This document shows, one piece after another, positions 13,815 to 48,086 of a stretch of DNA of 64,000 nt. This DNA is from Candidatus Saccharicenans sp. (lineage in GTDB: Bacteria; Acidobacteriota; Aminicenantia; Aminicenantales; Saccharicenantaceae): NCBI GenBank assembly GCA_035416665.1, contig DAOLNQ010000001.1:158733-222732 (forward strand), read 5' to 3'. Position numbers and translations under genes: made by a program. Every line of letters starts with the position of its first letter. Position 1 is the first letter of the stretch. The notes below the pieces were generated by a model that had not been told where the DNA came from, did not search any database, and was given only the letters and a program-made list of their open reading frames with translations.

Positions 13815-13942
13815 TGATTATACCTGACTGCCTTTTTTATAGTTTATAAGTTTAGTCCTATTTTTTCAACTTTTTAAGGACAAAAATGAGATCAAGGCAG
13901 AACTATTGGACAGAAGACTTTATTTTATGTTATTTTTTACTC

Positions 13943-14809
13943 ATGAAAGTCGCCATTGCTCAAATAAGTTCAGTCCTGGGCCGGGTTGATAAGAATTTAG
14001 ACAGACATCTCGAGCTTATAGAAAAAGCCGCCAGCCAGAAGGCGGACCTGGTTATTTTCCCTGAGCTCAGCCTGACTGGCTACTCTCTTCAAGATCTGGT
14101 ACCGGAAGTAGCAATTAGACCAGATTGTTCAGAAGTTATGTCAAGGTTGCTGGTTGCTTCCAGAAATATTGACGTGGTGGTCGGTCTGGTTGAAGAAAGA
14201 AAGGAAAATCCCGGTATTTTTTATAACTCCGCTGCCTACCTGAGCCGTGGCAAAATCACTCACCTGCATCGTAAGGTTTTCCTCCCCACTTCCGGCATGT
14301 TTGAAGAAGGCCGCTTTTTTGCCGGCGGCCGGGAATTCCGAGCTTTTCCGGCAGGTTCAAACCGGGTCGGACTGCTTATTTGCCGGGACTTTCTCCATTA
14401 CAGCTCCAGCTATTGTTTGCTGGCTGATGGGGCCGGACTGATCATCGTTATTTCGGCCGCACCAGGTCGCGGGATAATCAATGAGGACAGCCAGGGCTTT
14501 GAGTCCAGTCGAAGCTGGGAATTGATGGGTCAGACTATTTCCTATTTTTCAAGTGCCTATGTAATTTATTGCAATCGGGTCGGACTGGAAAATGGAGTAA
14601 CTTTCGCCGGGGGGTCCTTCATTTACAACCCTGACGGTCAGCTCCAGTTTAAAGCGCCCTATCTCGAGGCTGACTTTTCAATCCAGGAGATTGACCTCGA
14701 CCTGATAAGAAAAGCCAGAAAGAACAGGCCTTATAAACGTGACGACAGGCCGGATGTCATCCGCTACTCTCTTAGCCGTTTGCTCAGGAAACAAGATGAT
14801 GAAGATTAA
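13943..14809 (+). CDS. Carbon-nitrogen hydrolase (nitrilase superfamily); probable glutaminase partner of NadE
   Basis: MKVAIAQ...FPELSLTGY...LICRDF matches the Glu-Lys-Cys triad context of the family. The 3' end overlaps nadE by 14 nt. The internal ATG at 13943 is preferred. Confidence 0.75.
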   Translation: MKVAIAQISSVLGRVDKNLDRHLELIEKAASQKADLVIFPELSLTGYSLQDLVPEVAIRPDCSEVMSRLLVASRNIDVVVGLVEERKENPGIFYNSAAYLSRGKITHLHRKVFLPTSGMFEEGRFFAGGREFRAFPAGSNRVGLLICRDFLHYSSSYCLLADGAGLIIVISAAPGRGIINEDSQGFESSRSWELMGQTISYFSSAYVIYCNRVGLENGVTFAGGSFIYNPDGQLQFKAPYLEADFSIQEIDLDLIRKARKNRPYKRDDRPDVIRYSLSRLLRKQDDED

Positions 14810-15611
14810 CTGCCAGCTCGTCACCAGAGTTTTAACCAGTTTTATCAGGGAAGAAAGCAATAAGGCCGGTTTTGAACGTAATATTATTGGAGTGTCGGGT
14901 GGCCTGGATTCTACGGTTTGTGCTTACCTGGCAGCCAGGGCTGTTGGGCCACAGAATATCTTTGGACTGATTATGCCTTTTAAAGATTATGATCAGGAAG
15001 GGGTTCAGCTGGCTGAGGAGTGCTGTCGCCTCCTGGGAATAAATTTCGAAAAGATTGACCTTTCCCCTCAGATAGAAGCCTATTTTTCCAGGCATCCGGT
15101 TGAGCTGCCAGTTCTTCGCGGCAACAAGATGGCCAGGGAGAGGATGTCTATCCTTTATGATTATTCAGCCCGTCTGAAGGCTATGATTCTCGGGACGAGC
15201 AACAAATCAGAATTATTAATTGGTTATGGAACAATTCATGGTGATCTGGCCTGTGGGATAAATCCAATGGGAGATCTGTACAAGACTCAAGTCCGCCAGC
15301 TGGCCCGGTACCTGGAAGTGCCAGAAAAAATTATCAGCCGGAAACCAACGGCAGGCCTCTGGCCTGGCCAGACTGACGAAGACGAGATTGGCCTTAGCTA
15401 TGAAGAACTGGACGAGATCCTTTTTAAACTGGTAGACGAACGGCTGACCCCGGATGAAGCCATAAAAGCCGGCCTTGAAGAGAAAAAAGTTCGCCAGGTA
15501 TCCGAATTAATCAGGAAATCTGAATATAAGAGAAAGATGCCGCCCATAGCCAAATTATCAGAACGGACAGTCGGACACGATTTTCTTTACCCTTATGACT
15601 GGGGAAAGTAG
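14796..15611 (+). CDS. nadE: NH3-dependent NAD+ synthetase (single-domain NadE)
   Basis: SGGLDS P-loop of the N-type ATP pyrophosphatases, followed by NadE-like sequence. The ATG at 14796 is chosen and overlaps the upstream gene. Confidence 0.85.
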   Translation: MMKINCQLVTRVLTSFIREESNKAGFERNIIGVSGGLDSTVCAYLAARAVGPQNIFGLIMPFKDYDQEGVQLAEECCRLLGINFEKIDLSPQIEAYFSRHPVELPVLRGNKMARERMSILYDYSARLKAMILGTSNKSELLIGYGTIHGDLACGINPMGDLYKTQVRQLARYLEVPEKIISRKPTAGLWPGQTDEDEIGLSYEELDEILFKLVDERLTPDEAIKAGLEEKKVRQVSELIRKSEYKRKMPPIAKLSERTVGHDFLYPYDWGK

Positions 15612-21085: not shown

Positions 21086-21583
21086 TCAATTCTCCTTGCT
21101 TTCTTCCTTATTTTGAACCTTCTTAGCTGTCCTGGGCGTTTTTTTTGTTGGCGTTTTTTCCGCCTCTGCCACCTCCGGACCGGTGGCCTTTCTGGCTCTC
21201 GTCCTGACAGCTTTTTCCACTGGTTTCTGAGCTTCCTCCTCAGCTGGTTTTCTCTCTACATGACCTGACCACTCTGGATATATGCCATCTATTTTGATTT
21301 TGGTCAGCATCTGCCGGTGACCTTTTGTCCGACGATAACCTTTCCTTCTTTTCTTTTTAAAAACAGTAACTTTATCATCCTTATAGGTCTCGATTACTTC
21401 ACCGGTCACAGCGGCCTTTTCCAGATATGGACTACCTACCAGAATACGGTCCTCAGCTTCTATCAGCAAGACCTGATCAAAGGTGACCGCTTCTCCAGGA
21501 GCAGCCTCTACTTTTTCTATGGAGAGGACATCTCCTTCTTTCACTCGGTACTGCTTGCCGCCTGTTTTGATAACTGCAAACAT
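21086..21583 (-). CDS. rplU: 50S ribosomal protein L21 with a roughly 60-aa Lys/Ala/Glu/Pro-rich C-terminal extension
   Basis: [20 protein letters not shown] is canonical L21. The protein is 165 aa against the usual ~103. Confidence 0.85.
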
Positions 21584-21676: not shown

Positions 21677-24600
21677 TTAACTCAGATGCTTGACCAGAGT
21701 TCCCCACCTTTTATCAAGAACAAAACCTTCTTTCATAAAAAACTGAGGAATGAGATAGTGAGTCATGATAAGCTTGATGCCTGAATTTCGCATTCGTTCA
21801 ATAAAATCCCTCAACATAGCCCGGCCCAGACCTCTTTGCTTATAACCTTTGGCCACCACTATTCCCTCCATAAAAACCACTTCTGAAGACAGGTTACGGA
21901 AGCAAATACCCCCAACCACCAATCCATCCTCATCAACCAGGACCAGGTTATGATTTAGCTGAGAAATAACCCGGGGATAATTATCCAGCAGGAAAAGGTG
22001 ATACAGCTGCCCGATTTCAGCTGGTTCATAACTTTCCCGGAATGTAAACTGATTTCCCTGCCGATCGGTTATGGTTGATTTTATGATCAGCCTTTCCCGT
22101 CCCGATTCGCCTGTCTTGGTCAGGTCAAGATCTTTAGTTTCTGTTGCTCTGGGGAAAACCATTCGACTGAATACCTGACGGTCTTCTTCCGACTCCAGAT
22201 TTGATTGGATTTCCGACAGTTCAACAAACTGGATAGCCATCTTATCAGGCTGGCTCTTCATTTTATCAAGTAATTTTTCAAAAGCCATGATCACTTCAGC
22301 TGAGGCTGAAGAAAAATAGGTATGACGGTAAACATAAAATCGGAGCAGCTCTGGACGGGAATTCAGATGGAATTCATTGATAAGTTCGATAACTTTTTTC
22401 TCGCGCTCAAAAGGAGTAGCTTGCCCGTTGGCTATTTCCCATTCTTTATATTTGCGGATAGCAGTTAAAACCGAAACGGGCATAACTGGATTCTGGCGAA
22501 TTTCGCCTAAATAGCTTTCCAGCTGAAAGCGGAATGAGCCAAAACCCTCTACCTCAATATCTTCACACTCGAGCTCATGGAAAAGCTCTTCCAGGAAGTT
22601 CAGGGCCCGTTTTTCTTCCCAGACTTCAAAACAGGCATCAAATATCCAGCTTAGATCTATTATCTTCCGGGACCAGGGATAGGCAGCCGCCACCTTCAGG
22701 TAGAAGTTCTCGATTATAAGGCGTACCAGGGACAGAGGCCCCCTATAAGGTTTTATTTCCCCTATTTCAATCAAGCCGGGATGTTCTCCATCCACACAAA
22801 TATTCTCCGGTAAGGCCTGACCGGGGATAATACGGTAGTCTGAAGCGGCTACCGCCCTGAGAATCACTCCGATGGCTTCAATATAAAGCATCCGCCATTC
22901 CTGTGGAGTAACAAGAGAAATCGGCCCGCCAGGACGAGTGGCAAAATCTCTGATCCTTTCACTAACATTGAGACGGCTGAAAAAGCGGTAACTGATAGCT
23001 TTCAGATCCGGCCGCCAGCTGGCCAGGCGGGGTAAAAGACGCGGATAATTAAAATCCTCAGAAAGACATAAATGCCATAAAATTTTGTCTATGAGTCGCT
23101 GGCCAAAACGTCCTTTTAAAATTTCCACTCTTAGGTCATAATGCTCTCCCTGAGAAGTGTTGAGGCAAACCCGGAGGTGAAGTCCCGGGTAAATAGAAGC
23201 TACTCTTGAAACCCTGATTTCACCAGAAGCCAACCCTTCGGGACTGAAGGAGTTAAAGCCATAGGCAAAAGCAACACTTTCGGCCAGAAAAGTCGGTTCC
23301 GACAGAACCTGGCTGATCAATCTTCTTTCTGATTGAGAAAAATCACTGGCAATCTGGAGCTTCTCAAGAATTCTGGCTTTGATATCCTCAGGCAGCCTGA
23401 CTTTTAGCCGCAGTCTAAAAAGGTTATATAGATTTTCCATTATTTTAAAAGATTCAGAAGCGAGAACCGGATCTTTCCGGTGAAGGGACCAGCTGGCCAG
23501 TTCAGCTGTCACCTGCGGAAAAAACTCGGGATGGATAGTGGCAAAGTCGGCCAGAAGTTTAAAAATATGAAGAAATTGATTGATCGTCCCCTCTGCTGCA
23601 GGCCATTTCAGAGATTGACGGTAATTAGCTAATCTGCGGCGTAGAGCCTCAAATTGCCCGCCACCCAGGGCCGATGAGGAAATTTCCTCAATGGACTCTT
23701 CATTAAGAAAAGTTAGCCCCGACTCAACGAAAGCCTCGAGAGAAGGTGTATATTCAGGTAGTGGCTGATCAAGGAGTAGAAGCCGGTAAGCCCAGCAACG
23801 GACTTTCTCTAAAGGATGACTGGCCAGAGCTTCCAATCTGAGTCTGATGAGAATAGATACCCTGAGATTTTCAGCCTGATTGAAAAGTTTTTCATAATCA
23901 CTCATTGCTCCGAGAGCTGCTTCTTCTGGACCGAAGTACAGTCTGGAAATCAGGTCATGGACCCTGACCAGCGTCAGATCAGTTATTCCTCTTGGCGGCG
24001 GGAAATCCTGCTGACCGGACAGAGCTCTCTCAGCCGGTAGCCAGATTCGATTAGAAACGTTACCCAGAGGTGTATCCCAGCCTTCCCGACAGACCAGAAA
24101 TTTCACCAGTGATGGATTACCGCACCATAAAAGTGGTTGACGAGCAAACAAACCCAGATCTATCGTCCTGTCTTTGATTTCATAGTAGAGATCGCCAATA
24201 AGGAATTTATGATTCTGTTGTTCATGACGAATGGCCAGAGAAGCCTCCCGACCGGCAATAACCAATCTGTCTCCTTCCAGGCGAAAATCTTCTTCAATCA
24301 AACCAAGGTCTCTTATCAGCCAGAACGGAAGCTTTAGATTGAAATCCCTGGCATTCAGGCCGAGATAATCTTTTTTATACAGCTGTTCAATCACATCAGA
24401 GAAATTAGCCACAATTTTTTTTCGATTGAACGAACCTTTAGCCGTCAGTTCGCCCTTCTCACGAGAAAAATCTCTATCCAGAAGGGCGAACTTAATTACC
24501 CGCTCATAAGGAGCCAGGCTCAGGTTAGCTGCTTCTATGATTCTCTTATAATATTCCCTTTCCCCTTCTACGGCGGGTAAGCTGCTCAGTTCAGGAGCAC

Positions 24601-26299
24601 TGGTGTCGGGCACGATAAGCAGCGCATTATAGGGCTTGCCATCTCCTACCAGAAAAACATTCTTAAAACCAGGCACAGATTTAAATTTGTCTTCAATTTT
24701 TCGAGGGGCAATGGTTTGCCCGCGGTTGTTTTTATAAATATCCTTTATCCGGTCAACCAATCGATAATAGCCATTGGGCAAAACTTCGAAGATATCACCG
24801 GTTCTAAGCCAGTAATCGGAACCAGGCGTACCAGGATAAGGGATGTCATCGCCAGGTCCTTTATCTTCCAGATAACGGGCAATATAGTGACCCCTGGCCA
24901 GCAGTTCCCCCTCCGGGCTCAACTTCAGCTCGACACCGGGTAAGGCACAACCCTGAGTATCGTCTACATAACGGCCGGGCAGAGTCATGGTCAATCCACC
25001 CGTCGCCTCGGTTAGACCGAAACCGGAAATCAAATCAATCCCATATCTGGCAAAAAAATGGAAGACACGAGGCTCCAGATAACCGGCAGCAGAAATTCCC
25101 CAGTGCAGTCTGGAGCCAACGATTTTTCTAACCGCTGCTTTTTTTTCATCATCGGTTCTGGCACCAGCAACGGCCTCCCGGCATCTTTCATAGATCTGTA
25201 CCCAGCGGATAGGCACACTGACCAGACCCGTCGGGTTAACTCTGGGAAACAGACTTAAAAGGGTATCGATAGATGGATTTCCGGAGAAAACATAGGTGCC
25301 GCGCCAGAAAATAGAACCAAGAAGCTCGAAATAGCGACCGAAAGTATGGTACAAAGGCAAAAAACTGAGCAGAACTTCATCCTGCCCAACTTCAGGTAAA
25401 GCTGCCGCCCGGGCGAATCTCTTGGAAATAAGATTGTAAGTTGAGAAGGAAACCCCCTTGGGAACACCGGTACTGCCCGAAGTATACATGACGGTTGAAA
25501 CCTGGGTCAGACGAAAGCGGGGTCTTTGAGCCAGAACCTGATCTATCTCTTTGGGATTGAGCGTTCTGATCTGCTCACCGAGATAGAGCGAACTTCCTGC
25601 CGGTTCAATTCTCTGCAGGGTAAGAATGGCAAAATTCAGACCAGCTTTTTGCTTTAGCTGCTCGAGCAGTTTCAATCTTTCCAGGTTATCAGTAATAACG
25701 ATGTTTATTTTCAGCTGGTTAAAAATCATCTCCAGATTTTCTAAATTAAAAGTTGGATTGAGCGGTGTCACCAGAATGTCATAGAAAAGGCAGGCCAGAT
25801 CGCTGCAGGCCGAATCAAGATGATTTTCACTGAAAATAGCTACCCGCGGCTCAAGTGGAGAGGCCAGTAGATAAAAGTAGCCAGCCAGCATTTTCAGGTA
25901 GGAAGCGATTTCTGAATAGGTCCAATTTCCCCCTTTTAAAGTAGACAGGTCAAGGAAAAGTATCCGATCTGGATTTTCTTTGACTCTATCTTCAAATAAG
26001 TCCAGAAGGTTATAATTTATTTTCTGGATGAAGCCAAAACAGGTTTCAGCCCATTCCCAGTTTTTCTGGGGATAAGGCAGACATCTAAGGAAGGTTGAAG
26101 TTGAGGTCAGGTTTAAATAGGTTCTGATTATTTCCGGGCTAAGACTTTCGACCTGCCCCCCAGCCAGAAGTCTGGAGGCCAGGGTCACTATGTCCTCAGC
26201 CAGGCGCGGGTTGGTGGCGGGCAGCTGGGCAACCCAGGAATTTAAAAGTTCCTGCAGAGAAACTTTCGATCCTGGTCGAAGATCTTTTGCTTCTGTCAT
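21677..26299 (-). CDS. 1540-aa multidomain protein: N-terminal region, AMP-forming acyl/aryl-CoA ligase domain, ~700-aa uncharacterised region, C-terminal GNAT acyltransferase
   Basis: Adenylation motifs: YTSGSTGVPKGV (A3), GFGLTEATGG (A5), YWLRTGDIFEVLPNGYYRLVDRIKD (A7/A8), ELTAKGSFNRKKI (A10 Lys). The last ~130 aa form a GNAT fold (IVVAKGYKQRGLGRAMLRDF). Confidence 0.8.
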   Translation of the reverse strand: MTEAKDLRPGSKVSLQELLNSWVAQLPATNPRLAEDIVTLASRLLAGGQVESLSPEIIRTYLNLTSTSTFLRCLPYPQKNWEWAETCFGFIQKINYNLLDLFEDRVKENPDRILFLDLSTLKGGNWTYSEIASYLKMLAGYFYLLASPLEPRVAIFSENHLDSACSDLACLFYDILVTPLNPTFNLENLEMIFNQLKINIVITDNLERLKLLEQLKQKAGLNFAILTLQRIEPAGSSLYLGEQIRTLNPKEIDQVLAQRPRFRLTQVSTVMYTSGSTGVPKGVSFSTYNLISKRFARAAALPEVGQDEVLLSFLPLYHTFGRYFELLGSIFWRGTYVFSGNPSIDTLLSLFPRVNPTGLVSVPIRWVQIYERCREAVAGARTDDEKKAAVRKIVGSRLHWGISAAGYLEPRVFHFFARYGIDLISGFGLTEATGGLTMTLPGRYVDDTQGCALPGVELKLSPEGELLARGHYIARYLEDKGPGDDIPYPGTPGSDYWLRTGDIFEVLPNGYYRLVDRIKDIYKNNRGQTIAPRKIEDKFKSVPGFKNVFLVGDGKPYNALLIVPDTSAPELSSLPAVEGEREYYKRIIEAANLSLAPYERVIKFALLDRDFSREKGELTAKGSFNRKKIVANFSDVIEQLYKKDYLGLNARDFNLKLPFWLIRDLGLIEEDFRLEGDRLVIAGREASLAIRHEQQNHKFLIGDLYYEIKDRTIDLGLFARQPLLWCGNPSLVKFLVCREGWDTPLGNVSNRIWLPAERALSGQQDFPPPRGITDLTLVRVHDLISRLYFGPEEAALGAMSDYEKLFNQAENLRVSILIRLRLEALASHPLEKVRCWAYRLLLLDQPLPEYTPSLEAFVESGLTFLNEESIEEISSSALGGGQFEALRRRLANYRQSLKWPAAEGTINQFLHIFKLLADFATIHPEFFPQVTAELASWSLHRKDPVLASESFKIMENLYNLFRLRLKVRLPEDIKARILEKLQIASDFSQSERRLISQVLSEPTFLAESVAFAYGFNSFSPEGLASGEIRVSRVASIYPGLHLRVCLNTSQGEHYDLRVEILKGRFGQRLIDKILWHLCLSEDFNYPRLLPRLASWRPDLKAISYRFFSRLNVSERIRDFATRPGGPISLVTPQEWRMLYIEAIGVILRAVAASDYRIIPGQALPENICVDGEHPGLIEIGEIKPYRGPLSLVRLIIENFYLKVAAAYPWSRKIIDLSWIFDACFEVWEEKRALNFLEELFHELECEDIEVEGFGSFRFQLESYLGEIRQNPVMPVSVLTAIRKYKEWEIANGQATPFEREKKVIELINEFHLNSRPELLRFYVYRHTYFSSASAEVIMAFEKLLDKMKSQPDKMAIQFVELSEIQSNLESEEDRQVFSRMVFPRATETKDLDLTKTGESGRERLIIKSTITDRQGNQFTFRESYEPAEIGQLYHLFLLDNYPRVISQLNHNLVLVDEDGLVVGGICFRNLSSEVVFMEGIVVAKGYKQRGLGRAMLRDFIERMRNSGIKLIMTHYLIPQFFMKEGFVLDKRWGTLVKHLS

Positions 26300-26440
26300 A
26301 AAATGAAAATTAAGGCAATTTAATTCTGGCTATTCAATCTCGACTTTCATTCTAATATATATAGACGGCTTAGTCAAAAATGAACCTGGCTGGCTTGACA
26401 ACAGAGTTTCTTTCTCTTAATTTAATCTTAAGTTCTGGCT

Positions 26441-26515
26441 GGGCGGTTAGCTCAGGGGCAGAGTGTCGGTCTTACAAACCGGAGGTCACTGGTTCGAACC
26501 CAGTACCGCCCACCA
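26441..26515 (+). tRNA. tRNA-Val (TAC)
   Basis: Cloverleaf: acceptor GGGCGGT/ACCGCCC, anticodon loop CTTACAA, T arm ACTGG-TTCGAAC-CCAGT. CCA is encoded. A plausible TTGACA-17-TAATTT promoter lies at about 26394-26422. Confidence 0.85.
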
Positions 26516-26779: not shown

Positions 26780-28123
26780 ATGGCTAAAGCCAGAATTCTG
26801 ATTGTTGAGGACGAAGCACTGGTAGCCAGAGACCTGGTTAATATGATCAAGTCTCTCGGTTATGAGGTAACTGATCTCATTCAGAACGGCGAAGCAGTTG
26901 TCCAGAGCGTCGAGAAAAACCGCCCAGATCTGGCTATCATGGATATTGTTCTCAAGGGCCGCGTTGATGGAATCGAGGCAGCCGCTATCCTCTGGGAAAA
27001 ATATTCTATACCGGTAGTTTATATAACTTCATTCGCCGATGACCTGACCTTCGAGCGAGCCCGGTTAACCGAACCCTTTGGCTATTTAATCAAACCTTAT
27101 GAAGAAAGAGAACTGGAATTGACCATTGAAATAGCGCTTTATAAAGCCAGAAGGGAGCGGCTGGTGAAGGAAAGGGAAAAATGGCTATCGACTATACTAA
27201 AGGGCATAGATGATGGCATCATTGTCACTGATAACAGAGGTAAAGTTACTTTTATAAATCCATCAGCGCAAAAAATCACGGGCTGGAATGAACCGGATGC
27301 GATTGACCAACCCGTGGACAGGATATTGGAACTAAAGGAAAACCTGAATTTTGATCCTGATTCTGCCCTGCCCGTGCCAGGGGAAACCAATCTTATAACC
27401 AGAACTGGCCTGGAAATTCCCGTTGAACTGACAGTCTCCACTCTACCTGAGGAAAGTGGCCAACCGAGCGGTCAGGTGATAGTTTTTAAAGATGAGACCT
27501 CTCGTCGACAGGCTGAACAAGAACTACAGGAAAGCTGGGCAAAACTCCGGCGAGCGCTGAAAGGTACCATTCAGGCCATTTCTACCACGATTGAGATGCG
27601 CGATCCTTACACGGCTGGCCACCAGCGGCGAGTTGCTCAACTGGCTAAAGCTATTGCTCAGGAAATGAGTTTACCTGAAGTCAAAATTGAAGGTATCATA
27701 TTTGCAGCTCAAATCCATGATATCGGGAAAATTTATGTTCCAGCGGAAATTCTGAGTAAGCCCACAAAATTAACCGATCTTGAATACACAATTATCAAAA
27801 CTCATCCTCAAGCTGGCTATGAAATTTTAAAGAATATCGAATTCCCCTGGCCAATTGCCGAGGTCGTTTTACAGCATCACGAACGACTCAACGGCTCGGG
27901 CTACCCGGCTGGATTGAAAGACGGGGAAATTTTACTGGAAGCCAGAATTCTGGCAATTGCTGATGTGGTCGAAGCTATGTCTTCCCACCGGCCTTACCGC
28001 CCCTCCTTCGGGATAGATAAAGCTCTGGATGAGATCAGGCTTAATAACGGTCTTCTTTATGAACCAGAAGCAGTGGCTGCCTGCCAGCGGCTGTTTTTAG
28101 AGAAAGCCTTTTCATTCGAATGA
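26780..28123 (+). CDS. Response regulator with PAS and HD-GYP domains (probable c-di-GMP phosphodiesterase)
   Basis: Receiver (ILIVEDEALVARDL...LAIMDIV...KP), then a PAS-like segment, then an HD-GYP domain (HDIGK, HHERLNGSGYP). Confidence 0.85.
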   Translation: MAKARILIVEDEALVARDLVNMIKSLGYEVTDLIQNGEAVVQSVEKNRPDLAIMDIVLKGRVDGIEAAAILWEKYSIPVVYITSFADDLTFERARLTEPFGYLIKPYEERELELTIEIALYKARRERLVKEREKWLSTILKGIDDGIIVTDNRGKVTFINPSAQKITGWNEPDAIDQPVDRILELKENLNFDPDSALPVPGETNLITRTGLEIPVELTVSTLPEESGQPSGQVIVFKDETSRRQAEQELQESWAKLRRALKGTIQAISTTIEMRDPYTAGHQRRVAQLAKAIAQEMSLPEVKIEGIIFAAQIHDIGKIYVPAEILSKPTKLTDLEYTIIKTHPQAGYEILKNIEFPWPIAEVVLQHHERLNGSGYPAGLKDGEILLEARILAIADVVEAMSSHRPYRPSFGIDKALDEIRLNNGLLYEPEAVAACQRLFLEKAFSFE

Positions 28124-42195: not shown

Positions 42196-43869
42196 TTGAA
42201 AAAACAGGCCTATAATTTTCTAAAGCTTCAGGCCGAGCGAGACAAGGCGAGTAAGCAGGAGAGAGGAGAGCTTATTCAGCTGTTTCCGTCCGAGTCTGAT
42301 ATTCCCGAAAAATTCCGCCTGAATTCTAATCTCGACCAGCACCGGGTTCTCATCGATGGGCAGATTATTCCCTGGAAGGGGGCTCTAGCTGAGGTATTTT
42401 CTCCTATTTATATCAAAAACGGTGATTCCTTAGACAGAAAAAGGATTGGCTCGTATCCTGCAATGACCCGCCAGGCGGCACTGAAGGCACTGGATTCCGC
42501 CAGAAGGGCTTTTTCTTCTGGAAACGGAACATGGCCTTCATTTCCTCTCTCCAGGCGGATCGAATCGATTGAAAAGTTTCTGGAACGATTAGAAAACCAG
42601 AAAGAAAACATTCTCAGAACTCTGCTGTGGGAAATCGCCAAGCCTTACCATGAACTGGAAGATGAATTTGAAAGAACCAGGCAATATATTGAACAGGTAA
42701 TCAAGGTTGCCGGTCAGAAAGAAAAAGATTCCTTTCTGCTAAAAAAGGAAAAAGGAATCTTAGGCCTTATCCATAATGAACCCTATGGAATCGCTCTGTG
42801 TCTGGGACCGTATAACTATCCCCTTTTTGAAACTTTCAGCCTGGTTTTACCTGCTCTCTTAGCGGGTAATGTGGTGATAATCAAACCCCCCAAATTTGGA
42901 GTGTTGTTTTTTGACTTTTTGTTAGAAGCTTTTCAGGACTGCTTCCCGCCGGGTGCAGTGAACATCATTTCTGGCGATGGTAAAAAGATTATTGAACCGC
43001 TGATGAAAAGTGGAGAGGTAGATGTTCTGGCTTTTATCGGTTCAGCTGAGACTGCTAACCGCTTGATCAGTCTGCACCCCAGAAAAAATAGATTACATAG
43101 CTTATTGGGTCTCGGTGCAAAAAACGCGGCGATAGTTTTGCCTGATGCCGACCTCGATGTGGTTGTCGCGGAATCGGTTTTAGGAGCACTGGCTTTCAAC
43201 GGCCAGCGCTGTGCAGCTTTGAAAATATTTTTTGTGCATAAAGAAATTGAGGCAACTTTCAGAAAACGGCTGCTTGATGCCGTGAGCAAAATTAACCTGG
43301 GAATGCCCTGGATGGAAAGGGTAAGGATCACACCGATAGTTGACCCCGAGCGGCTTCCCTATCTGCATGAACTGGTCAGGGAGGCCCTCAATAAAGGAGC
43401 CAGGATAGGTAACAAAAATGGTGGAAGATCACTCGAATCAATTTTTGTCCCGGCTGTTTTGTATCAAGTCAATTCAAAAATGAGGATTTACTGGGAAGAA
43501 CAATTCGGACCAATTATACCCGTTGTCTCTTACCACGATATAAAAGAACCGGTAACTTATATCAGTAATTCTCCCTTCGGACAGCAGTTGAGCATTTTTG
43601 GTACAAAAACCAAGACATTGATAGAGCTGATTGATCTGGTCAAAAACCAGGTATCACGGGTAAATATTAATACCAAATGCCAGCGCGGTCCTGATCTTTT
43701 CCCTTTCACCGGTAAAAAAGATTCGGCTCACGGAGATTTTTCAATTTTGAATATCCTCGATTATTTCTCATCGCAAGCTGTCGTAGCAGCAAGAGAAACT
43801 GAGCTCAGCGAAGCTCTCTTCCAAAGCCTTCAACAACCAAAACATTTAGATATAAACCAGGGATCATGA
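42196..43869 (+). CDS. GapN-like aldehyde dehydrogenase-family protein (557 aa) with the general-base Glu of the ELGGK motif apparently replaced by Gly
   Basis: Colinear with non-phosphorylating GAPDH/ALDH: GPYNYP, AGNVVIIKPP, catalytic Cys in FNGQRCAALK, EEQFGP, and INTKCQRGPDLFPFTGKKDSAHG. The segment aligned to xLELGGKxxxIV reads SLLGLGAKNAAIV. Confidence 0.8.
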   Translation: MKKQAYNFLKLQAERDKASKQERGELIQLFPSESDIPEKFRLNSNLDQHRVLIDGQIIPWKGALAEVFSPIYIKNGDSLDRKRIGSYPAMTRQAALKALDSARRAFSSGNGTWPSFPLSRRIESIEKFLERLENQKENILRTLLWEIAKPYHELEDEFERTRQYIEQVIKVAGQKEKDSFLLKKEKGILGLIHNEPYGIALCLGPYNYPLFETFSLVLPALLAGNVVIIKPPKFGVLFFDFLLEAFQDCFPPGAVNIISGDGKKIIEPLMKSGEVDVLAFIGSAETANRLISLHPRKNRLHSLLGLGAKNAAIVLPDADLDVVVAESVLGALAFNGQRCAALKIFFVHKEIEATFRKRLLDAVSKINLGMPWMERVRITPIVDPERLPYLHELVREALNKGARIGNKNGGRSLESIFVPAVLYQVNSKMRIYWEEQFGPIIPVVSYHDIKEPVTYISNSPFGQQLSIFGTKTKTLIELIDLVKNQVSRVNINTKCQRGPDLFPFTGKKDSAHGDFSILNILDYFSSQAVVAARETELSEALFQSLQQPKHLDINQGS

Positions 43870-46800
43870 GTAAAGAGAAAACAACTGAAAATTTACAGTC
43901 AGCAATGAGCATTTCATCCGGGGGTGCTGGTGGAATAACCATTCCAGCCAGGCATCTCAGTCTTCTGGACTTGTTCACTGACTTTTATGGAACTCATAAG
44001 CGGCTAAAAGAATTTCTGGAAAAGTTTCATCAACCGCACACTCAGAGCGACCAGCTGGCAGAAGAACTCAGGGGAATCAGCCTCGGAGATTTCTACAAAT
44101 ACAACTTTAACGACCAGGGGCAGCTGGCCCTGCAAATCCTGGCTGAAATTTATGCCGAACTAATTAATCGGGAAAACAGCGGGCCGGTTAAAGAAAAAAT
44201 TATCGGCTATTTTTTTGAATATCTAAGGAAAATACTGGAGGACAGTAGAGAGCATCTCTCCCGAAATATCCCGGTTGTCCTCTGGGCTCTGGATTTCCTG
44301 CGGCAGAGACCTGAGGAAGAATCCGGATCGATGAAAAAAATCACCAGAGACCTGAAAGCTATTCTTAAATTTTTTATTGATGCCGGTCTGCAAGTTCCGG
44401 TCTATAATCTGGCAGAGCTAAGCTATCGCGCCTTTCGGGCATCTTTTAACTTCTGGCTGCAGCAGCCTGATCCGCTTCGTGAATTTATTGAGTTCAATGG
44501 GCAGGCCGAGGCCCGGGCCAGATATCAATCACTGGTCGCCCCGATCAGCCATGATCATCTACGGTTACTGTTGAGGCGGTTGGAAGAGGCTTTTCCCCCG
44601 GCCAGTTTGGAAAACTATGAGGCCTTTAAAATTTATTTAGAACTTCCCGATTACTATCAAATCGCCGACGGCTATCTAAGAATCGCCCACGAGCTAGAGG
44701 TGGCCCCCTTAGATAACCAGCGAGGAGAATCTTTCCATGTTGATTTCCTGTTAAAAATCATCAGCTTACCTGCCCTCCAGGACATTCATCGTGAAGCGCT
44801 GATGGAAATCAACCGTTCATTCGGCCGTGCCCTGGCAGAGAAATCCGCACCAGAAGCCGAAGAATTTATCAGAAAGATGTTCCAGGTGCTGCGGGAAAAC
44901 ACTGCCTCCAGCCACCATACTGAGACCATTTTTAGCTTTATTAATGCTGCCGCCCGGGAGGTCTTTAAGCTCAACCAGCATTCCCTGGTCAATACTCTTA
45001 TCGAGGAAATTATTCTTTTCGGATTTCAATCACCCAATATTCAAGGTACAACAACTGATTGGGAAGTAAAATTTAATCCTTGGCATATCAAGAATATTCG
45101 TTCCTGGCTCGAGATTATTAGGCTGAAGCCCCGCTGGACAAAACAGCTGCTATCAGCCTTGATCATCAACCTTAAAATCGGAGGCGTCTTTGTCCGGGAT
45201 ACTGATCTTTTGCAGAAAGATATTTCTGCCCTTCTAAATTCAGATATCACTCCTGCCTTTAACCTGATCATGCAACTGGCCAGACTGCTTCCGATTTTTT
45301 TCAATGAAATCAATGCTGAAGGCGAACTGCGGGAGGTCTCGATCCGCATGGATGACATTACTGGCCGCCGCGATCCCCTGATTCATTTTGTCAGAAAACA
45401 ATCTCATGTAGAAAGTAACAGTAGGCTTATTCCTTTTGTTGAGGCTATTGTTCGCTACTGGTATTCTGGAAACAAAGAAGACATCCGCCCCTTCCTGCCC
45501 GAGGAGGTTTATGAACAAATTGAAGGCTGTTCAGAGATATACGAAGGGATGCATAAAATCTTTAGGGTGCTCTACAAGGAGGTCCATCAGAATCCGCGCC
45601 TTTTTCTGCAGTGGGAACCATCTAAAATTCAGAGGATTATCCAGAAAATCCCCAAGGTAACAGACGACGATAAGGAAAAGGCTATTCTGGTCCTGCGTTT
45701 TTATCAATTGCTCTATAAAAAATACAACATTCATTATCAGGATGTGATCAAAAGCCTGCAATCTTCATATATTTTTGACCAACAGAAGCTGACCTCCTTG
45801 CAGAAAGCCCTCTTACGGAAAGATTATTACCAGAGTCTGGTTATACTTATGGATTTTCTGAGTCTCTTAAAAGAGCGTATTGTTTCTCCGGAAAAAACAG
45901 AAGCCTTTGAAGATATTTATCATAAAAGACACATTGCGGCCGGCATCCCGTCCATGTATGGTGTCTATCGTGAGCCCAAATTCGATGCTCTTGGCCTTTA
46001 TCTCAGGTTACAATGTCTGGCCAACGTCCTTCTGGAACAGCTCATCAATTCCCTCAATATCCAGTTCATCACCAAAACCACTCTGGTAAAAATTGATAAA
46101 TATCTTCGTCTGTTTATCAAGGCCCTTCAACTGGAAGGGATTTCCACAGAAGGGCTTGAATCAAAGACGAAATATCTCCAGGGAGCTCTCCAAATCAAAC
46201 GTTTTAGCCTCGATCAATACATTGATATCTTCCGTTTCATTTCCAGGGGTATCCAGGATATCATCCGGCTCTACTACATAGACCCTCATCAGGCCAATCT
46301 CCGGATAGTAATTCGGCAGTTTCTGGCCAGACAGTATGGTGATAAAATGACCAGCCTGTCCAGAGAGGAAGAGGAAGCAGCAGTCTATATGCAGACCGAG
46401 AATTTTCTGCGCTCAATTATTGCCTCAAGTTTTGGGCTGCAGACGCTCGATAACTTTATCAGCAATATTCTCAAAACACTTTGCGCTGAACAAGAGAAAT
46501 TCAAAACTCACAGCCACATGTTGAATATTCTGATGAGTTACAATCCAGAGATAATCATCACGCCTCTTTACAAGAAGCCACAAAAAAAAGATGACCAAAT
46601 TCTTCTTGGTAATAAAGGCTATTTTCTCAAGCAACTTTATTCTCTCAGTTTCCCCGTTCCCCCGGGCTTTGTGCTGACCACAGAAATTTTTAGATGCCTG
46701 GAGGCTATTCTTGGTTACCAGGAAATTTACCAGGATATGAACATGAGGCTCAAGCGCGAACTTAAAAAGCTGGAAAAAATAACCCGCCGGCGCTATGGTC

Positions 46801-48086
46801 ACCCTCAAAATCCTTTACTGCTGTCCGTGAGAAGCGGCTCGGCCATCTCTCTGCCAGGCATGATGAGCTCATTTCTGAATGTCGGTATCAATGAGGAAAT
46901 TGCTGAAGGTTTGAGTCAGAAAAAGGGCTATGCCTGGGCCGCCTGGGATTGCTACCGCCGTTTTCTTCAGTTCTGGGGTATGTCAGAGGGCCTGGACCGT
47001 GATTTCTTTGATGAAATCATCGATGATTTTAAGGAAAAATATAACGTCTCCAAAAAGCTATATTTCACTCCCGATCAAATGCGCGAGATCGCCCTTGCTT
47101 ATAGAAAAGCGCTCGAGGATAGTGGAATCGCGGTTGAAGATGACCCGCCTGAACAGCTGAGAAAAGCTATTTTCAAAGTAATTGAGTCCTGGCATTCTCC
47201 TCGAGCCAAATTGTACCGACAAGAAATGAACATTTCAGACAAGTGGGGGACAGCTGTTGTTGTTCAGTCGATGGTCTTCGGTAATCTGGACGAATGGTCT
47301 GGTTCAGGAGTTACCTTTACCCGTGATCCTAAGGGCCTGTCAAGTTCTGTTCTTCTTTCAGGTGATTTCATTTTCGGAGGTCAGGGTGACGATATAGTAG
47401 CCGGACTGGTAGAAACATATCCTATTTCCGAAGCTCAAAGGAAAAGCGAAAAAAGAGACAGCGAAATTTCTTTAGAAAACAAGTTTCCAGCTGTTTATGC
47501 CGAGTTGAAGCGCCTGGCAGAAATATTGATTTACGACCAGGGTTTCGGTCACCAGGAGATTGAATTTACCTTTGAAAATAATTCCAGGGAAGGACTGTAT
47601 ATCCTGCAGACTCGTGATATGCCGCCGCCGGAACGCTTCAAGTTGAAGTCTTTCACCAGAACACCCAAGCTGGAGAAGTCTCTGATCGGATATGGCATCG
47701 GTATTGGCGGCGGAGCGCTGTGCGGAAGAGCTGTTTTCTCCGAGCAGGAAATCAAATTTTTCAGCCAGAAAGAACCTCAGACCCCTTTAATTTTAATTCG
47801 CCCGGACACTGTTCCCGACGACATCGGACTCCTGCGGCAGGTTGACGGATTACTGACCGCTAAAGGAGGAAGCACTTCCCATGCTGCAGTTATAATTCCT
47901 CAGCTAAAAAAAGTTGGCGTAGTTGGTCTCAGGAACCTGAAAGTCTATGAGAAGAACGGCTACAGCCTGATCAACGGATACAAGATCAATAGCGGCGATT
48001 TTATCGGCATTGATGGCTGGAGCGGCTCTGTTTACCTCGGCAAGCACCAGATTGAAGAAAAAGCAATAACTCCCGCCCGAATATGA
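43866..48086 (+). CDS. 1406-aa protein with an N-terminal ~870-aa uncharacterised helical region and a C-terminal pyruvate-phosphate-dikinase-like ATP-grasp domain plus phosphohistidine swivel domain; the PEP/pyruvate TIM barrel is absent
   Basis: From about nt 46600 the protein is colinear with the PPDK N-terminus: LLGNKGYF, PLLLSVRSGSAISLPGMMSSFLNVGINEE, YRRFLQFWG, WHSPRAKLYRQEMNISDKWGTAVVVQSMVFGN, SGSGVTFTRDP, GLYILQTRDM. The His domain is at GLLTAKGGSTSHAAVI. The ATG overlaps the upstream TGA (ATGA). Confidence 0.8.
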   Translation: MSKEKTTENLQSAMSISSGGAGGITIPARHLSLLDLFTDFYGTHKRLKEFLEKFHQPHTQSDQLAEELRGISLGDFYKYNFNDQGQLALQILAEIYAELINRENSGPVKEKIIGYFFEYLRKILEDSREHLSRNIPVVLWALDFLRQRPEEESGSMKKITRDLKAILKFFIDAGLQVPVYNLAELSYRAFRASFNFWLQQPDPLREFIEFNGQAEARARYQSLVAPISHDHLRLLLRRLEEAFPPASLENYEAFKIYLELPDYYQIADGYLRIAHELEVAPLDNQRGESFHVDFLLKIISLPALQDIHREALMEINRSFGRALAEKSAPEAEEFIRKMFQVLRENTASSHHTETIFSFINAAAREVFKLNQHSLVNTLIEEIILFGFQSPNIQGTTTDWEVKFNPWHIKNIRSWLEIIRLKPRWTKQLLSALIINLKIGGVFVRDTDLLQKDISALLNSDITPAFNLIMQLARLLPIFFNEINAEGELREVSIRMDDITGRRDPLIHFVRKQSHVESNSRLIPFVEAIVRYWYSGNKEDIRPFLPEEVYEQIEGCSEIYEGMHKIFRVLYKEVHQNPRLFLQWEPSKIQRIIQKIPKVTDDDKEKAILVLRFYQLLYKKYNIHYQDVIKSLQSSYIFDQQKLTSLQKALLRKDYYQSLVILMDFLSLLKERIVSPEKTEAFEDIYHKRHIAAGIPSMYGVYREPKFDALGLYLRLQCLANVLLEQLINSLNIQFITKTTLVKIDKYLRLFIKALQLEGISTEGLESKTKYLQGALQIKRFSLDQYIDIFRFISRGIQDIIRLYYIDPHQANLRIVIRQFLARQYGDKMTSLSREEEEAAVYMQTENFLRSIIASSFGLQTLDNFISNILKTLCAEQEKFKTHSHMLNILMSYNPEIIITPLYKKPQKKDDQILLGNKGYFLKQLYSLSFPVPPGFVLTTEIFRCLEAILGYQEIYQDMNMRLKRELKKLEKITRRRYGHPQNPLLLSVRSGSAISLPGMMSSFLNVGINEEIAEGLSQKKGYAWAAWDCYRRFLQFWGMSEGLDRDFFDEIIDDFKEKYNVSKKLYFTPDQMREIALAYRKALEDSGIAVEDDPPEQLRKAIFKVIESWHSPRAKLYRQEMNISDKWGTAVVVQSMVFGNLDEWSGSGVTFTRDPKGLSSSVLLSGDFIFGGQGDDIVAGLVETYPISEAQRKSEKRDSEISLENKFPAVYAELKRLAEILIYDQGFGHQEIEFTFENNSREGLYILQTRDMPPPERFKLKSFTRTPKLEKSLIGYGIGIGGGALCGRAVFSEQEIKFFSQKEPQTPLILIRPDTVPDDIGLLRQVDGLLTAKGGSTSHAAVIIPQLKKVGVVGLRNLKVYEKNGYSLINGYKINSGDFIGIDGWSGSVYLGKHQIEEKAITPARI

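What the first reader, a model, noticed from the sequence alone, without database searches (positions are those of the whole stretch)
21677..26299. 1540-aa fusion of an AMP-forming acyl-CoA ligase domain and a C-terminal GNAT acyltransferase, with ~700 aa of unknown sequence between them
All core adenylation motifs of the ANL superfamily are present in the AMP-ligase domain. The C-terminal ~130 aa show the GNAT acyl-CoA-binding fold.

Known Pat-type protein acetyltransferases fuse a GNAT to an NDP-forming, not AMP-forming, CoA-ligase-like domain. An AMP-ligase fused to a GNAT suggests self-contained synthesis of an acyl-CoA or acyl-AMP and its direct transfer to an amine acceptor, as in N-acyl amino acid, aminolipid or protein acylation.

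The ~200-aa N-terminal region and the ~700-aa central region have no motif I can name. The gene sits directly upstream of, and co-directional with, the rplU-rpmA-obg operon, and is bounded on the other side by tRNA-Val.
Basis: partly seen in the sequence, partly recalled or inferred. Interest (0 to 1): 0.7.

Follow-up and report, generated by a model that had tools for sequence, protein, structure and literature searches.

The report
Acyl-CoA ligase–pseudokinase–GNAT fusion enzyme
This is one intact 176-kDa enzyme that joins an ATP-dependent acid-activating domain, a catalytically dead kinase-like scaffold and an acyl-transferring GNAT domain; the family occurs in hundreds of mostly uncultured bacterial species and I found no studied member.

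Summary
Window 21677..26299 (-) is one uninterrupted 1540-aa ORF. It has an ACSL/FadD11-type AMP-forming ligase domain (aa 101-645, motifs A3, A5, A7, A8 and A10 intact) and a GCN5-like GNAT (aa ~1390-1540, acyl-CoA loop intact).

The full fusion is conserved in at least 463 species genomes (Aminicenantes, Zixibacteria, Bacteroidales, Ignavibacteria, Calditrichota and others). I found no genuinely split form. There is no conserved partner gene, no family-specific Pfam or NCBIfam model, no solved relative of the middle region, and no paper on it.

Adjacency to rplU-rpmA-obg holds only in the four closest relatives, and rplU has its own promoter-like site.

The solenoid and pseudokinase would act as docking or allosteric scaffold. 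This is a new variant of known kinds (Pat-type, Aas-type) and is biochemically untested.

The parts
21677..26299 (-). Whole gene: 1540-aa, 176-kDa protein with pI 6.3 and no hydrophobic segment of transmembrane strength.
   Evidence: Full-length homologues.
26000..26299 (-). N-terminal extension (aa 1-100). No known family. It is the least conserved part (mean pairwise identity 0.31), with a few near-invariant Leu and Trp residues.
24875..25999 (-). ANL adenylation domain, N-terminal subdomain (aa 101-475). Carries A3 TSGSTGVPKG (aa 273) and A5 GFGLTE (aa 426).
   Evidence: Pfam PF00501, 160.5 bits. Motifs. PDB relatives are the carboxylic acid reductase A-domain, malonyl-CoA synthetase and luciferases.
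24365..24874 (-). ANL C-terminal subdomain of the ACSL/FadD11 type (aa 476-645). Carries A7 TGD (aa 500), A8 DRIKD (aa 516) and A10 LTAKGS with invariant Lys621.
   Evidence: PF23562, 49 bits. Invariant columns. Most conserved part of the protein (0.64).
24035..24364 (-). Beta-rich domain (aa 646-755) with a very conserved patch: IDLGLFARQPxLWxGNPxLxxFxPCKEGWD. No known family.
   Evidence: AF2 models. Conservation.
23360..23977 (-). Alpha-helical solenoid (aa 775-980). Within the window's subfamily it has invariant Arg, His and Tyr residues: R821, H828, R834, Y838, R889, Y893, R894.
22550..23242 (-). Protein-kinase-like domain (about aa 1020-1250), degenerate. The catalytic loop is IIPGQALPEN, with Gln1161 in place of the catalytic Asp. 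Asn1166 is kept. The DFG-type Asp is absent, and 4 residues are deleted in this clade. R1043, D1055 and N1166 are conserved. I read it as a pseudokinase.
22145..22549 (-). Helical region (aa 1251-1385) that follows the kinase-like core and leads into the GNAT.
   Evidence: AF2. Conservation 0.45.
21680..22132 (-). GCN5-like GNAT domain (aa 1390-1540). Contains GGICFR, the Asp/Glu1478 candidate base, the acyl-CoA loop RGLGRA (aa 1489-1494), H1514 and D1529.
26349..26377 (-). Sigma-70-like promoter match upstream of the gene (TTGACT-17-TAGAAT). This is a consensus match only.

Best explanation
The gene encodes a single soluble multidomain enzyme.

Shown: it has an intact ACSL-type AMP-forming adenylation domain, an intact GCN5-like GNAT, and between them a beta domain, a helical solenoid and a kinase-fold domain. 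That kinase-fold domain has lost the residues needed for phosphotransfer.

Inferred mechanism:
1. The ligase domain uses ATP to turn a free carboxylic acid (most likely a fatty or other organic acid) into acyl-AMP and then acyl-CoA.
2. The GNAT on the same polypeptide uses that acyl-CoA to N-acylate an amine and releases CoA for the next cycle. The net reaction is ATP-driven amide formation with catalytic CoA.
3. The acceptor is most likely a protein amino group. A small amine or a lipid head group is not excluded.
4. The solenoid plus pseudokinase acts as the acceptor-docking and/or nucleotide- or CoA-sensing scaffold. This would be analogous to the regulatory domain that shapes the substrate pocket in PatZ.
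For: Every ANL catalytic motif, including the A10 Lys621, is invariant or nearly so across two subfamilies that share only 25-29% identity. The ANL is the most conserved part of the protein, at 0.58-0.64. That argues for an active enzyme rather than a relic.

The GNAT acyl-CoA loop and an acidic residue on beta4 are conserved in 47 of 47 sequences.

The domain order never varies in at least 463 species genomes or in the ~250 cluster representatives of the central region. Apparent short forms start inside ANL motifs, so they are fragments.

No partner gene recurs in the neighbourhood: the most frequent Pfam family appears in 3 of 89 neighbours. This fits a self-contained unit.

By sequence the GNAT is nearest to GCN5/PCAF and Sulfolobus Pat. 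By fold it is nearest to Naa40, GCN5, Pat and the Nat enzymes.

The ANL belongs to the ACSL/FadD11/CAR-like group that carries the PF23562 C-terminal domain.

Precedents for the logic: Aas fuses an ANL to an acyltransferase (own knowledge; the ANL matches NF006386), and the PatZ regulatory domain is required for GNAT activity (PMC12184503).
Against: - There is no biochemical data for any member.
- Coupling of the two active sites is inferred only from the fusion. No model of the full-length protein was made (limit 1200 aa), so no channel or juxtaposition has been shown.
- The HMMER alignment puts the GCN5 catalytic Glu two residues before the conserved Asp/Glu1478.
- The GNAT pocket is of ordinary acetyl-CoA size by sequence, whereas the ANL looks long-chain. 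The acyl group therefore cannot be named.
- The role of ~750 aa of scaffold is a guess.
Confidence: 0.4

Rival explanations
1. Built-in autoregulation. The GNAT acetylates the catalytic A10 lysine (Lys621) of its own or a neighbouring ligase domain. This would be the Pat/AcuA-Acs switch fused into one chain, with the real job of the protein being acyl-CoA synthesis.
Against: The A10 context here is GELTxKGSxNRK, not the PX4GK motif I recall as the Pat recognition site (recalled from my own knowledge, not checked). A regulator would not need ~750 aa of strongly conserved scaffold. No deacetylase recurs nearby.
Confidence: 0.2
2. A Pat-like acetyltransferase with a new sensor. The GNAT uses free acetyl-CoA on external targets. 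The ligase and pseudokinase only sense fatty acid, ATP/AMP or CoA levels, as the NDP-forming-synthetase-like domain does in PatZ.
For: The layout matches class I lysine acetyltransferases: a large N-terminal regulatory part and a C-terminal GNAT (PMC6456759, PMC12184503). The pseudokinase keeps pocket residues R1043, D1055 and N1166 across both subfamilies. In Bacteroidales the gene sits next to icd, acn and gltA, and a GNAT is known to acetylate isocitrate dehydrogenase in M. tuberculosis (PMC5428333).
Against: The full set of ANL catalytic residues is invariant and the ANL is the best-conserved domain, unlike a sensor relic. The TCA synteny is seen almost only in Bacteroidales/Bacteroidota loci.
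Confidence: 0.15
3. A small-molecule or lipid N-acyl synthase. The acceptor is an amino acid, amino alcohol, sphingoid base or polyamine, held with help from the APH/choline-kinase-like domain.
For: The kinase-like domain is structurally nearest, apart from Bud32, to small-molecule kinases: homoserine, aminoglycoside, choline/ethanolamine and amino-sugar kinases. GNAT plus APH fusions acting on small amines exist, for example AAC(6')-APH(2'') (own knowledge). The family is concentrated in FCB-group bacteria, which are rich in N-acyl lipids (own knowledge).
Against: The protein has no membrane segment. The GNAT is GCN5/Nat-like rather than OlsB-like by Pfam. No lipid or biosynthetic genes recur nearby.
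Confidence: 0.2
4. Translation-linked function. The enzyme acylates a ribosomal protein, Obg or a tRNA, because it lies between tRNA-Val and rplU-rpmA-obg.
For: The adjacency is real in the window and in L001, L002, L003 and L005. No terminator-like site follows the ORF. RimI-type GNATs appear among the fold neighbours.
Against: The adjacency is absent in the other 76 loci, including a 65%-identical Saccharicenans orthologue. A TTGACA-17-TAAATT promoter-like site lies in the 93-bp gap before rplU.
Confidence: 0.03
5. Artefact: two or three genes joined by a frameshift or a misassembly.
For: None found.
Against: The same length and domain order appear in hundreds of independent assemblies down to 20-25% identity.
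Confidence: 0.01

Closest known systems
Pat / PatZ (YfiQ), class I-alpha (type I) bacterial lysine acetyltransferases
   Same: A large multidomain protein with one C-terminal GNAT. The N-terminal part is related to an acyl-CoA synthetase. The GNAT is similar in fold. In PatZ the regulatory part is needed for GNAT function (PMC12184503).
   Different: Pat's N-terminal part is an NDP-forming (ATP-grasp/CoA-binding) synthetase-like domain that is not an active ligase. Here it is an AMP-forming ANL domain with all catalytic motifs, followed by a solenoid and a pseudokinase that Pat lacks.
Aas, bifunctional 2-acyl-GPE acyltransferase / acyl-ACP synthetase (NF006386)
   Same: An ANL domain fused to an acyltransferase, so that a free fatty acid is activated and transferred by one polypeptide. 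The ANL matches this model at E 2.6e-16.
   Different: Aas uses a PlsC-type O-acyltransferase and ACP and is membrane-bound (own knowledge). Here there is a GNAT, no carrier-protein similarity and no membrane segment.
ACSL/FadD11-type long-chain acyl-CoA synthetases and carboxylic acid reductase A-domains
   Same: Best sequence relatives of aa 100-645. Same C-terminal subdomain family, PF23562.
   Different: Scores are far below the NCBIfam family cut-offs (119.6 against 950 for FadD11), so it is not an orthologue of these. Those enzymes also lack the ~900 aa that follow.
Bud32/Rio and APH/choline-kinase-like small kinases
   Different: The catalytic Asp, the DFG Asp and the beta3 Lys are not conserved in the window's subfamily. 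There is no sequence-level match to any kinase family: no kinase family in Pfam, and a best PDB E-value of 0.13.
AAC(6')-Ie/APH(2'')-Ia bifunctional aminoglycoside-modifying enzyme
   Same: A GNAT and an APH-like kinase fold on one chain (own knowledge).
   Different: The domain order is opposite and both sites are active. It has no ANL domain and acts in antibiotic resistance.
AcuA-AcsA complex
   Same: A GNAT physically coupled to an AMP-forming CoA ligase (PMC11255334).
   Different: These are separate proteins. The GNAT inhibits the ligase by binding it and by acetylating its A10 Lys. Here the two are fused covalently through a large scaffold.

Membership tests
ANL superfamily (AMP-forming adenylating enzymes) | Pfam AMP-binding above the gathering score. 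| tested here: met
   160.5 bits against a cut-off of 29.9.
ANL superfamily (AMP-forming adenylating enzymes) | Core motifs: A3 P-loop, A5, A7 TGD, A8 hinge and the A10 catalytic Lys. | tested here: met
   Positions 273, 426, 500, 516 and 621. Invariant or at least 90% conserved.
FadD11 / long-chain acyl-CoA synthetase orthologue | NCBIfam family score cut-off. | tested here: not met
   NF038343: 119.6 bits against 950. PRK06187: 118.7 against 476.
FadD11 / long-chain acyl-CoA synthetase orthologue | Long-chain fatty acid substrate and a CoA thioester product. | not testable with these tools
   The only support is the PF23562 C-terminal domain and an ACSL-like linker motif.
GNAT superfamily | Pfam GNAT model above cut-off, and a GNAT fold. 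| tested here: met
GNAT superfamily | Acyl-CoA pyrophosphate loop R/Q-x-x-G-x-G/A. | tested here: met
   RGLGRA at aa 1489-1494. G1490 in 45/47, G1492 in 42/47, A1494 in 42/47 sequences.
GCN5/Pat-type protein lysine acetyltransferase | General-base Glu at the GCN5 position. | tested here: inconclusive
   Asp/Glu1478 is conserved in 47/47 sequences, but HMMER aligns the Tetrahymena GCN5 Glu with F1476, two residues earlier on the same strand.
GCN5/Pat-type protein lysine acetyltransferase | Acetylates protein lysines. | not testable with these tools
   Nearest neighbours are mostly protein acetyltransferases, but small-molecule GNATs score similarly.
Pat/PatZ class I-alpha KAT | NDP-forming acyl-CoA synthetase-like regulatory domain. 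| tested here: not met
   No CoA_binding, ATP-grasp or ligase-CoA Pfam hit. An AMP-forming domain is present instead. Classification from PMC6456759.
Protein-kinase-like superfamily | Bilobal kinase fold. | tested here: met
Protein-kinase-like superfamily | Catalytic-loop Asp and metal-binding DFG-type Asp (active kinase). | tested here: not met
   Position 1161 is variable (R/E/L/A/Q). The D/E-F/Y segment is deleted in the window's clade. The motif register was set from secondary-structure order and from the subfamily-2 alignment, not from a superposition.
Aas-type bifunctional acyltransferase/synthetase | PlsC-type acyltransferase domain and use of ACP. | tested here: not met
   No PlsC or PP-binding hit. 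hhalign against E. coli AcpP gives probability 0.4%.

The most novel reading that the evidence does not exclude
A new, sixth type of bacterial protein acyltransferase: a self-sufficient "writer" that makes its own acyl-CoA from a free acid and ATP and places it on protein amino groups, with substrate choice or activity set by a pseudokinase-solenoid adaptor. In the paralogous subfamily, which keeps the kinase Asp and Asn motifs, phosphorylation and acylation might be combined on one chain.
Probability: 0.2. Interest if true: 0.8.

Novelty: new variant of a known kind. Interest (0 to 1): 0.55.

Why it matters
If the two catalytic domains are coupled, this would be the first bacterial enzyme that writes an acyl mark, or builds an N-acyl compound, directly from a free acid without drawing on the cellular acyl-CoA pool. 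It would also add an AMP-forming type with a pseudokinase to the five recognised architectures of bacterial GNAT acetyltransferases.

The family is large: at least 463 species genomes and two subfamilies. It is common in poorly studied anaerobic lineages such as Aminicenantes, Zixibacteria, KSB1, Calditrichota, Ignavibacteria and environmental Bacteroidales. About 770 aa of it have no Pfam or NCBIfam model.

It also gives a clean natural series of a kinase fold losing its catalytic residues step by step.

Tried and rejected
1. Hidden carrier-protein (ACP/PCP) domain in the middle, around the conserved FVxSGLxFLNEES. hhalign against AcpP gives probability 0.4% and there is no PP-binding hit. 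Rejected.
2. Conserved operon partners. I clustered all neighbouring ORFs from 80 loci and ran Pfam on 89 immediate neighbours. Nothing recurred beyond a Bacteroidales-only synteny with icd, acn and gltA. Three further long contigs gave nothing consistent.
3. Functional link to rplU-rpmA-obg. Found in only 4 of 80 loci. No Rfam leader is present.
4. Naturally split versions. Short hits start inside ANL motifs and are fragments.
5. Sequence-level kinase membership. Pfam at E<=10 returned no kinase family, and a subfamily-2 profile against PDB gave STK10 at only E 0.13, although in a sensible register.
7. Literature. Six searches found no paper on an AMP-forming ligase-GNAT fusion.
8. The afdb50 fold library was unavailable.
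9. A full-length model could not be made because of the 1200-aa limit.
Full report
**1. What is there**

Window 21677..26299 (minus strand) is one ATG-started ORF of 1540 codons with no internal stop. The protein is 176 kDa, has pI 6.3, and has no segment hydrophobic enough to span a membrane.

Pfam finds AMP-binding at aa 102-471 (E 6.9e-47), AMP-binding_C_3 at aa 526-643 (E 9.9e-13), and GNAT models over aa 1422-1527 (Acetyltransf_1, E 6.9e-9). It finds nothing between aa ~650 and ~1420, even at E<=1. No NCBIfam model reaches its family cut-off. The best are FadD11 and long-chain-fatty-acid-CoA ligase models at about 119 bits, against cut-offs of 476-950.

**2. It is a real, conserved fusion**

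A search of 5.8 billion proteins returned more than 100 hits of 1486-1592 aa (plus one 1146-aa fragment) at 41-93% identity, covering 96-100% of the query. They are named only "GNAT family N-acetyltransferase", "AMP-binding protein" or "long-chain acyl-CoA synthetase".

The window itself is 99% identical to a contig of an Acidobacteriota (Aminicenantes-lineage) MAG. Other carriers are Zixibacteria, Bacteroidales/Prolixibacteraceae/Draconibacterium, Ignavibacteria, Kapabacteria, Calditrichota, Krumholzibacteriota, Fibrobacteraceae, Gemmatimonadaceae, NC10 and a few Gammaproteobacteria.

I then searched the central 771 aa alone against 1.84 billion cluster representatives. It gave only 250 hits. 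Virtually all lie at positions ~640-1420 of 1500-1640-aa proteins. The distant ~1600-aa ones have the same ANL...GNAT architecture. The shorter hits begin inside ANL motifs (for example DFSREQGEITAK or MGVALCSGFGMT), so they are gene fragments and not split genes.

A second search showed that the ~1590-aa proteins form a large sister subfamily in KSB1, Calditrichota and Ignavibacteriaceae, 25-29% identical to the window protein.

**3. Catalytic competence of the two ends**

*Ligase domain.* A3 TSGSTGVPKG (aa 273), A5 GFGLTE (426), A7 TGD (500), A8 DRIKD (516) and the A10 lysine in LTAKGS (Lys621) are all present. They are invariant or at least 90% conserved, and Lys621 is invariant across both subfamilies. 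The closest solved relatives are carboxylic acid reductase A-domains, malonyl-CoA synthetase and luciferases. The ANL is the most conserved part of the protein, with mean pairwise identity 0.58-0.64.

*GNAT domain.* The acyl-CoA loop RGLGRA (aa 1489-1494) is conserved. Position 1478 is Asp or Glu in 47 of 47 sequences. H1514 is nearly invariant (45 of 47) and D1529 is invariant.
- The best PDB sequence matches are Tetrahymena GCN5 (E 5e-5, sharing GGICFR), Sulfolobus Pat and KAT2A/PCAF.
- HMMER places the GCN5 catalytic Glu two residues before E1478, so the base assignment is tentative.

**4. The middle region**

Two AlphaFold2 models were built with a 47-sequence alignment. The model of aa 640-1540 has pLDDT 85.7 and pTM 0.75. 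The model of aa 640-1390 has pLDDT 89.0 and pTM 0.86. They show four parts:
- a beta-rich domain (aa ~646-755);
- a helical solenoid (aa ~775-980);
- an alpha/beta domain with the strand-helix order of a kinase;
- further helices leading into the GNAT.

After the helix that corresponds to alphaE, the family has P-G-x-x-x-P-x-N. Pro1164 and Asn1166 match the "P-x-N" of HRDLKPxN. The catalytic Asp position (aa 1161) is R, E, L, A or Q, and the DFG position carries no Asp.

The sister subfamily reads HGK[ST]VYR in the Gly-loop region and x-D-P-x-P-x-N-[VI]-I-V-P-x-H-D-Y-Q. It therefore keeps both the loop Asp and a D-Y-Q that looks like a DFG equivalent. Most of subfamily 1 keeps only a D/E-F/Y. 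The window's own clade has deleted those four residues.

The window protein thus carries the most degenerate version, a pseudokinase. It still conserves R1043, D1055 and N1166 with the sister subfamily, which could mean a retained nucleotide- or CoA-type pocket.

A profile of the subfamily-2 domain finds a Ser/Thr kinase N-lobe as its top PDB hit, in a sensible register but at E 0.13. Pfam returns no kinase family.

There is no carrier-protein similarity.

**5. Genomic context**

tRNA-Val (26441..26515, + strand) is divergent from the gene. rplU, rpmA, obg, nadD, rsfS and rlmH follow on the same strand (identified by eye).

tblastn of these neighbours against 80 related loci finds them next to the gene only in L001, L002, L003 and L005. 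They are absent from a 65%-identical Saccharicenans locus.

The 93-bp gap before rplU contains TTGACA-17-TAAATT with an extended -10 TG. The gene has its own TTGACT-17-TAGAAT upstream. No terminator-like site or Rfam leader was found. Read-through into rplU is possible, but a functional link is not supported.

Clustering of all neighbouring ORFs shows only one recurrent pattern. In Bacteroidales/Bacteroidota loci the gene lies between a divergent aconitase-citrate synthase pair and a co-directional isocitrate dehydrogenase (22, 16 and 13 loci). Elsewhere no Pfam family recurs in more than 3 of 89 immediate neighbours, and three long contigs add nothing consistent. The gene behaves as a stand-alone unit.

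**6. Interpretation**

Shown: an intact adenylation domain, an intact GNAT and a dead kinase fold, always together.

Inferred: the ligase converts a carboxylate to acyl-CoA, and the GNAT spends it on an amine, recycling CoA. I favour a protein acceptor because the GNAT's nearest relatives are GCN5, Pat and the Nat enzymes. I read the solenoid and pseudokinase as a docking or allosteric scaffold, by analogy with the PatZ regulatory domain, which is required for catalysis and shapes the substrate pocket (PMC12184503).

My confidence in this coupling is about 0.4. The alternatives are:
- autoregulatory acetylation of Lys621, the Pat/AcuA-Acs logic (PMC11255334, PMC4053389, PMC11619455), about 0.2;
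- a Pat-like enzyme in which the ligase only senses metabolites, about 0.15;
- small-molecule or lipid N-acylation, about 0.2;
- a translation-linked role, about 0.03;
- an assembly or frameshift artefact, about 0.01.

**7. Comparison with what is known, and novelty**

Published classifications list five types of bacterial GNAT lysine acetyltransferases. Their accessory domains are NDP-forming synthetase-like, ACT, cAMP-binding or NADP-binding (PMC6456759, PMC12184503). None has an AMP-forming ligase or a kinase fold.

The logic "ANL fused to an acyltransferase" exists in Aas. "GNAT plus APH fold" exists in AAC(6')-APH(2''). Both statements are from my own knowledge.

The protein fails the defining features of Pat (no NDP-forming domain), of Aas (no PlsC domain, no ACP) and of an active kinase. 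It meets those of the ANL, GNAT and kinase-fold superfamilies.

I rate it a new variant of known kinds. It is widespread and unstudied, and I give it moderate interest (0.55). It is not a mechanistic surprise yet, but it is a well-defined target whose biochemistry is directly testable.

Noticed in passing
window 43866..48086 (+): A 1406-aa ORF in which Pfam finds only PPDK_N (aa 914-1202) and the PEP-utilizers mobile domain (aa 1307-1386). About 900 N-terminal residues have no match. Its start overlaps the stop of an aldehyde dehydrogenase gene (42196..43869).
   Followed up: no
window 21086..21583 (-): Ribosomal protein L21 (rplU) is 165 aa. It carries a ~60-aa Lys/Glu/Ala/Pro-rich C-terminal tail beyond the usual ~103 aa. 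The close relatives L001-L003 and L005 have similar lengths of 160-167 aa.
   Followed up: partly
loci L022-L080 (Bacteroidales), e.g. L037:2351-12112: In Bacteroidales the family gene is embedded in the oxidative TCA-branch cluster: citrate synthase and aconitase are divergent upstream, and isocitrate dehydrogenase lies 34-210 bp downstream on the same strand. This could hint at a link to acetyl-CoA or TCA control, or it could simply be inherited synteny.
   Followed up: partly
proteins P0213, P0221, P0271-P0386 (sister subfamily, ~1590 aa): A paralogous subfamily in KSB1, Calditrichota and Ignavibacteriaceae keeps kinase-like motifs (HGK[ST]VYR; DPxPxN; HDYQ) that the window's subfamily has lost. 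Its kinase-fold domain may still bind or hydrolyse ATP.
   Followed up: partly
window 13886..15611 (+): Two ORFs overlap by 71 nt: a 307-aa nitrilase/CN-hydrolase-like ORF and a 290-aa NAD-synthase-like ORF (both identified by eye). Together they resemble a split glutamine-dependent NAD synthetase.
   Followed up: no
window 26780..28123 (+): A response regulator with PAS and HD-GYP-type HD domains lies divergent from the gene, beyond tRNA-Val. It is conserved at this position in L001-L003 only.
   Followed up: partly
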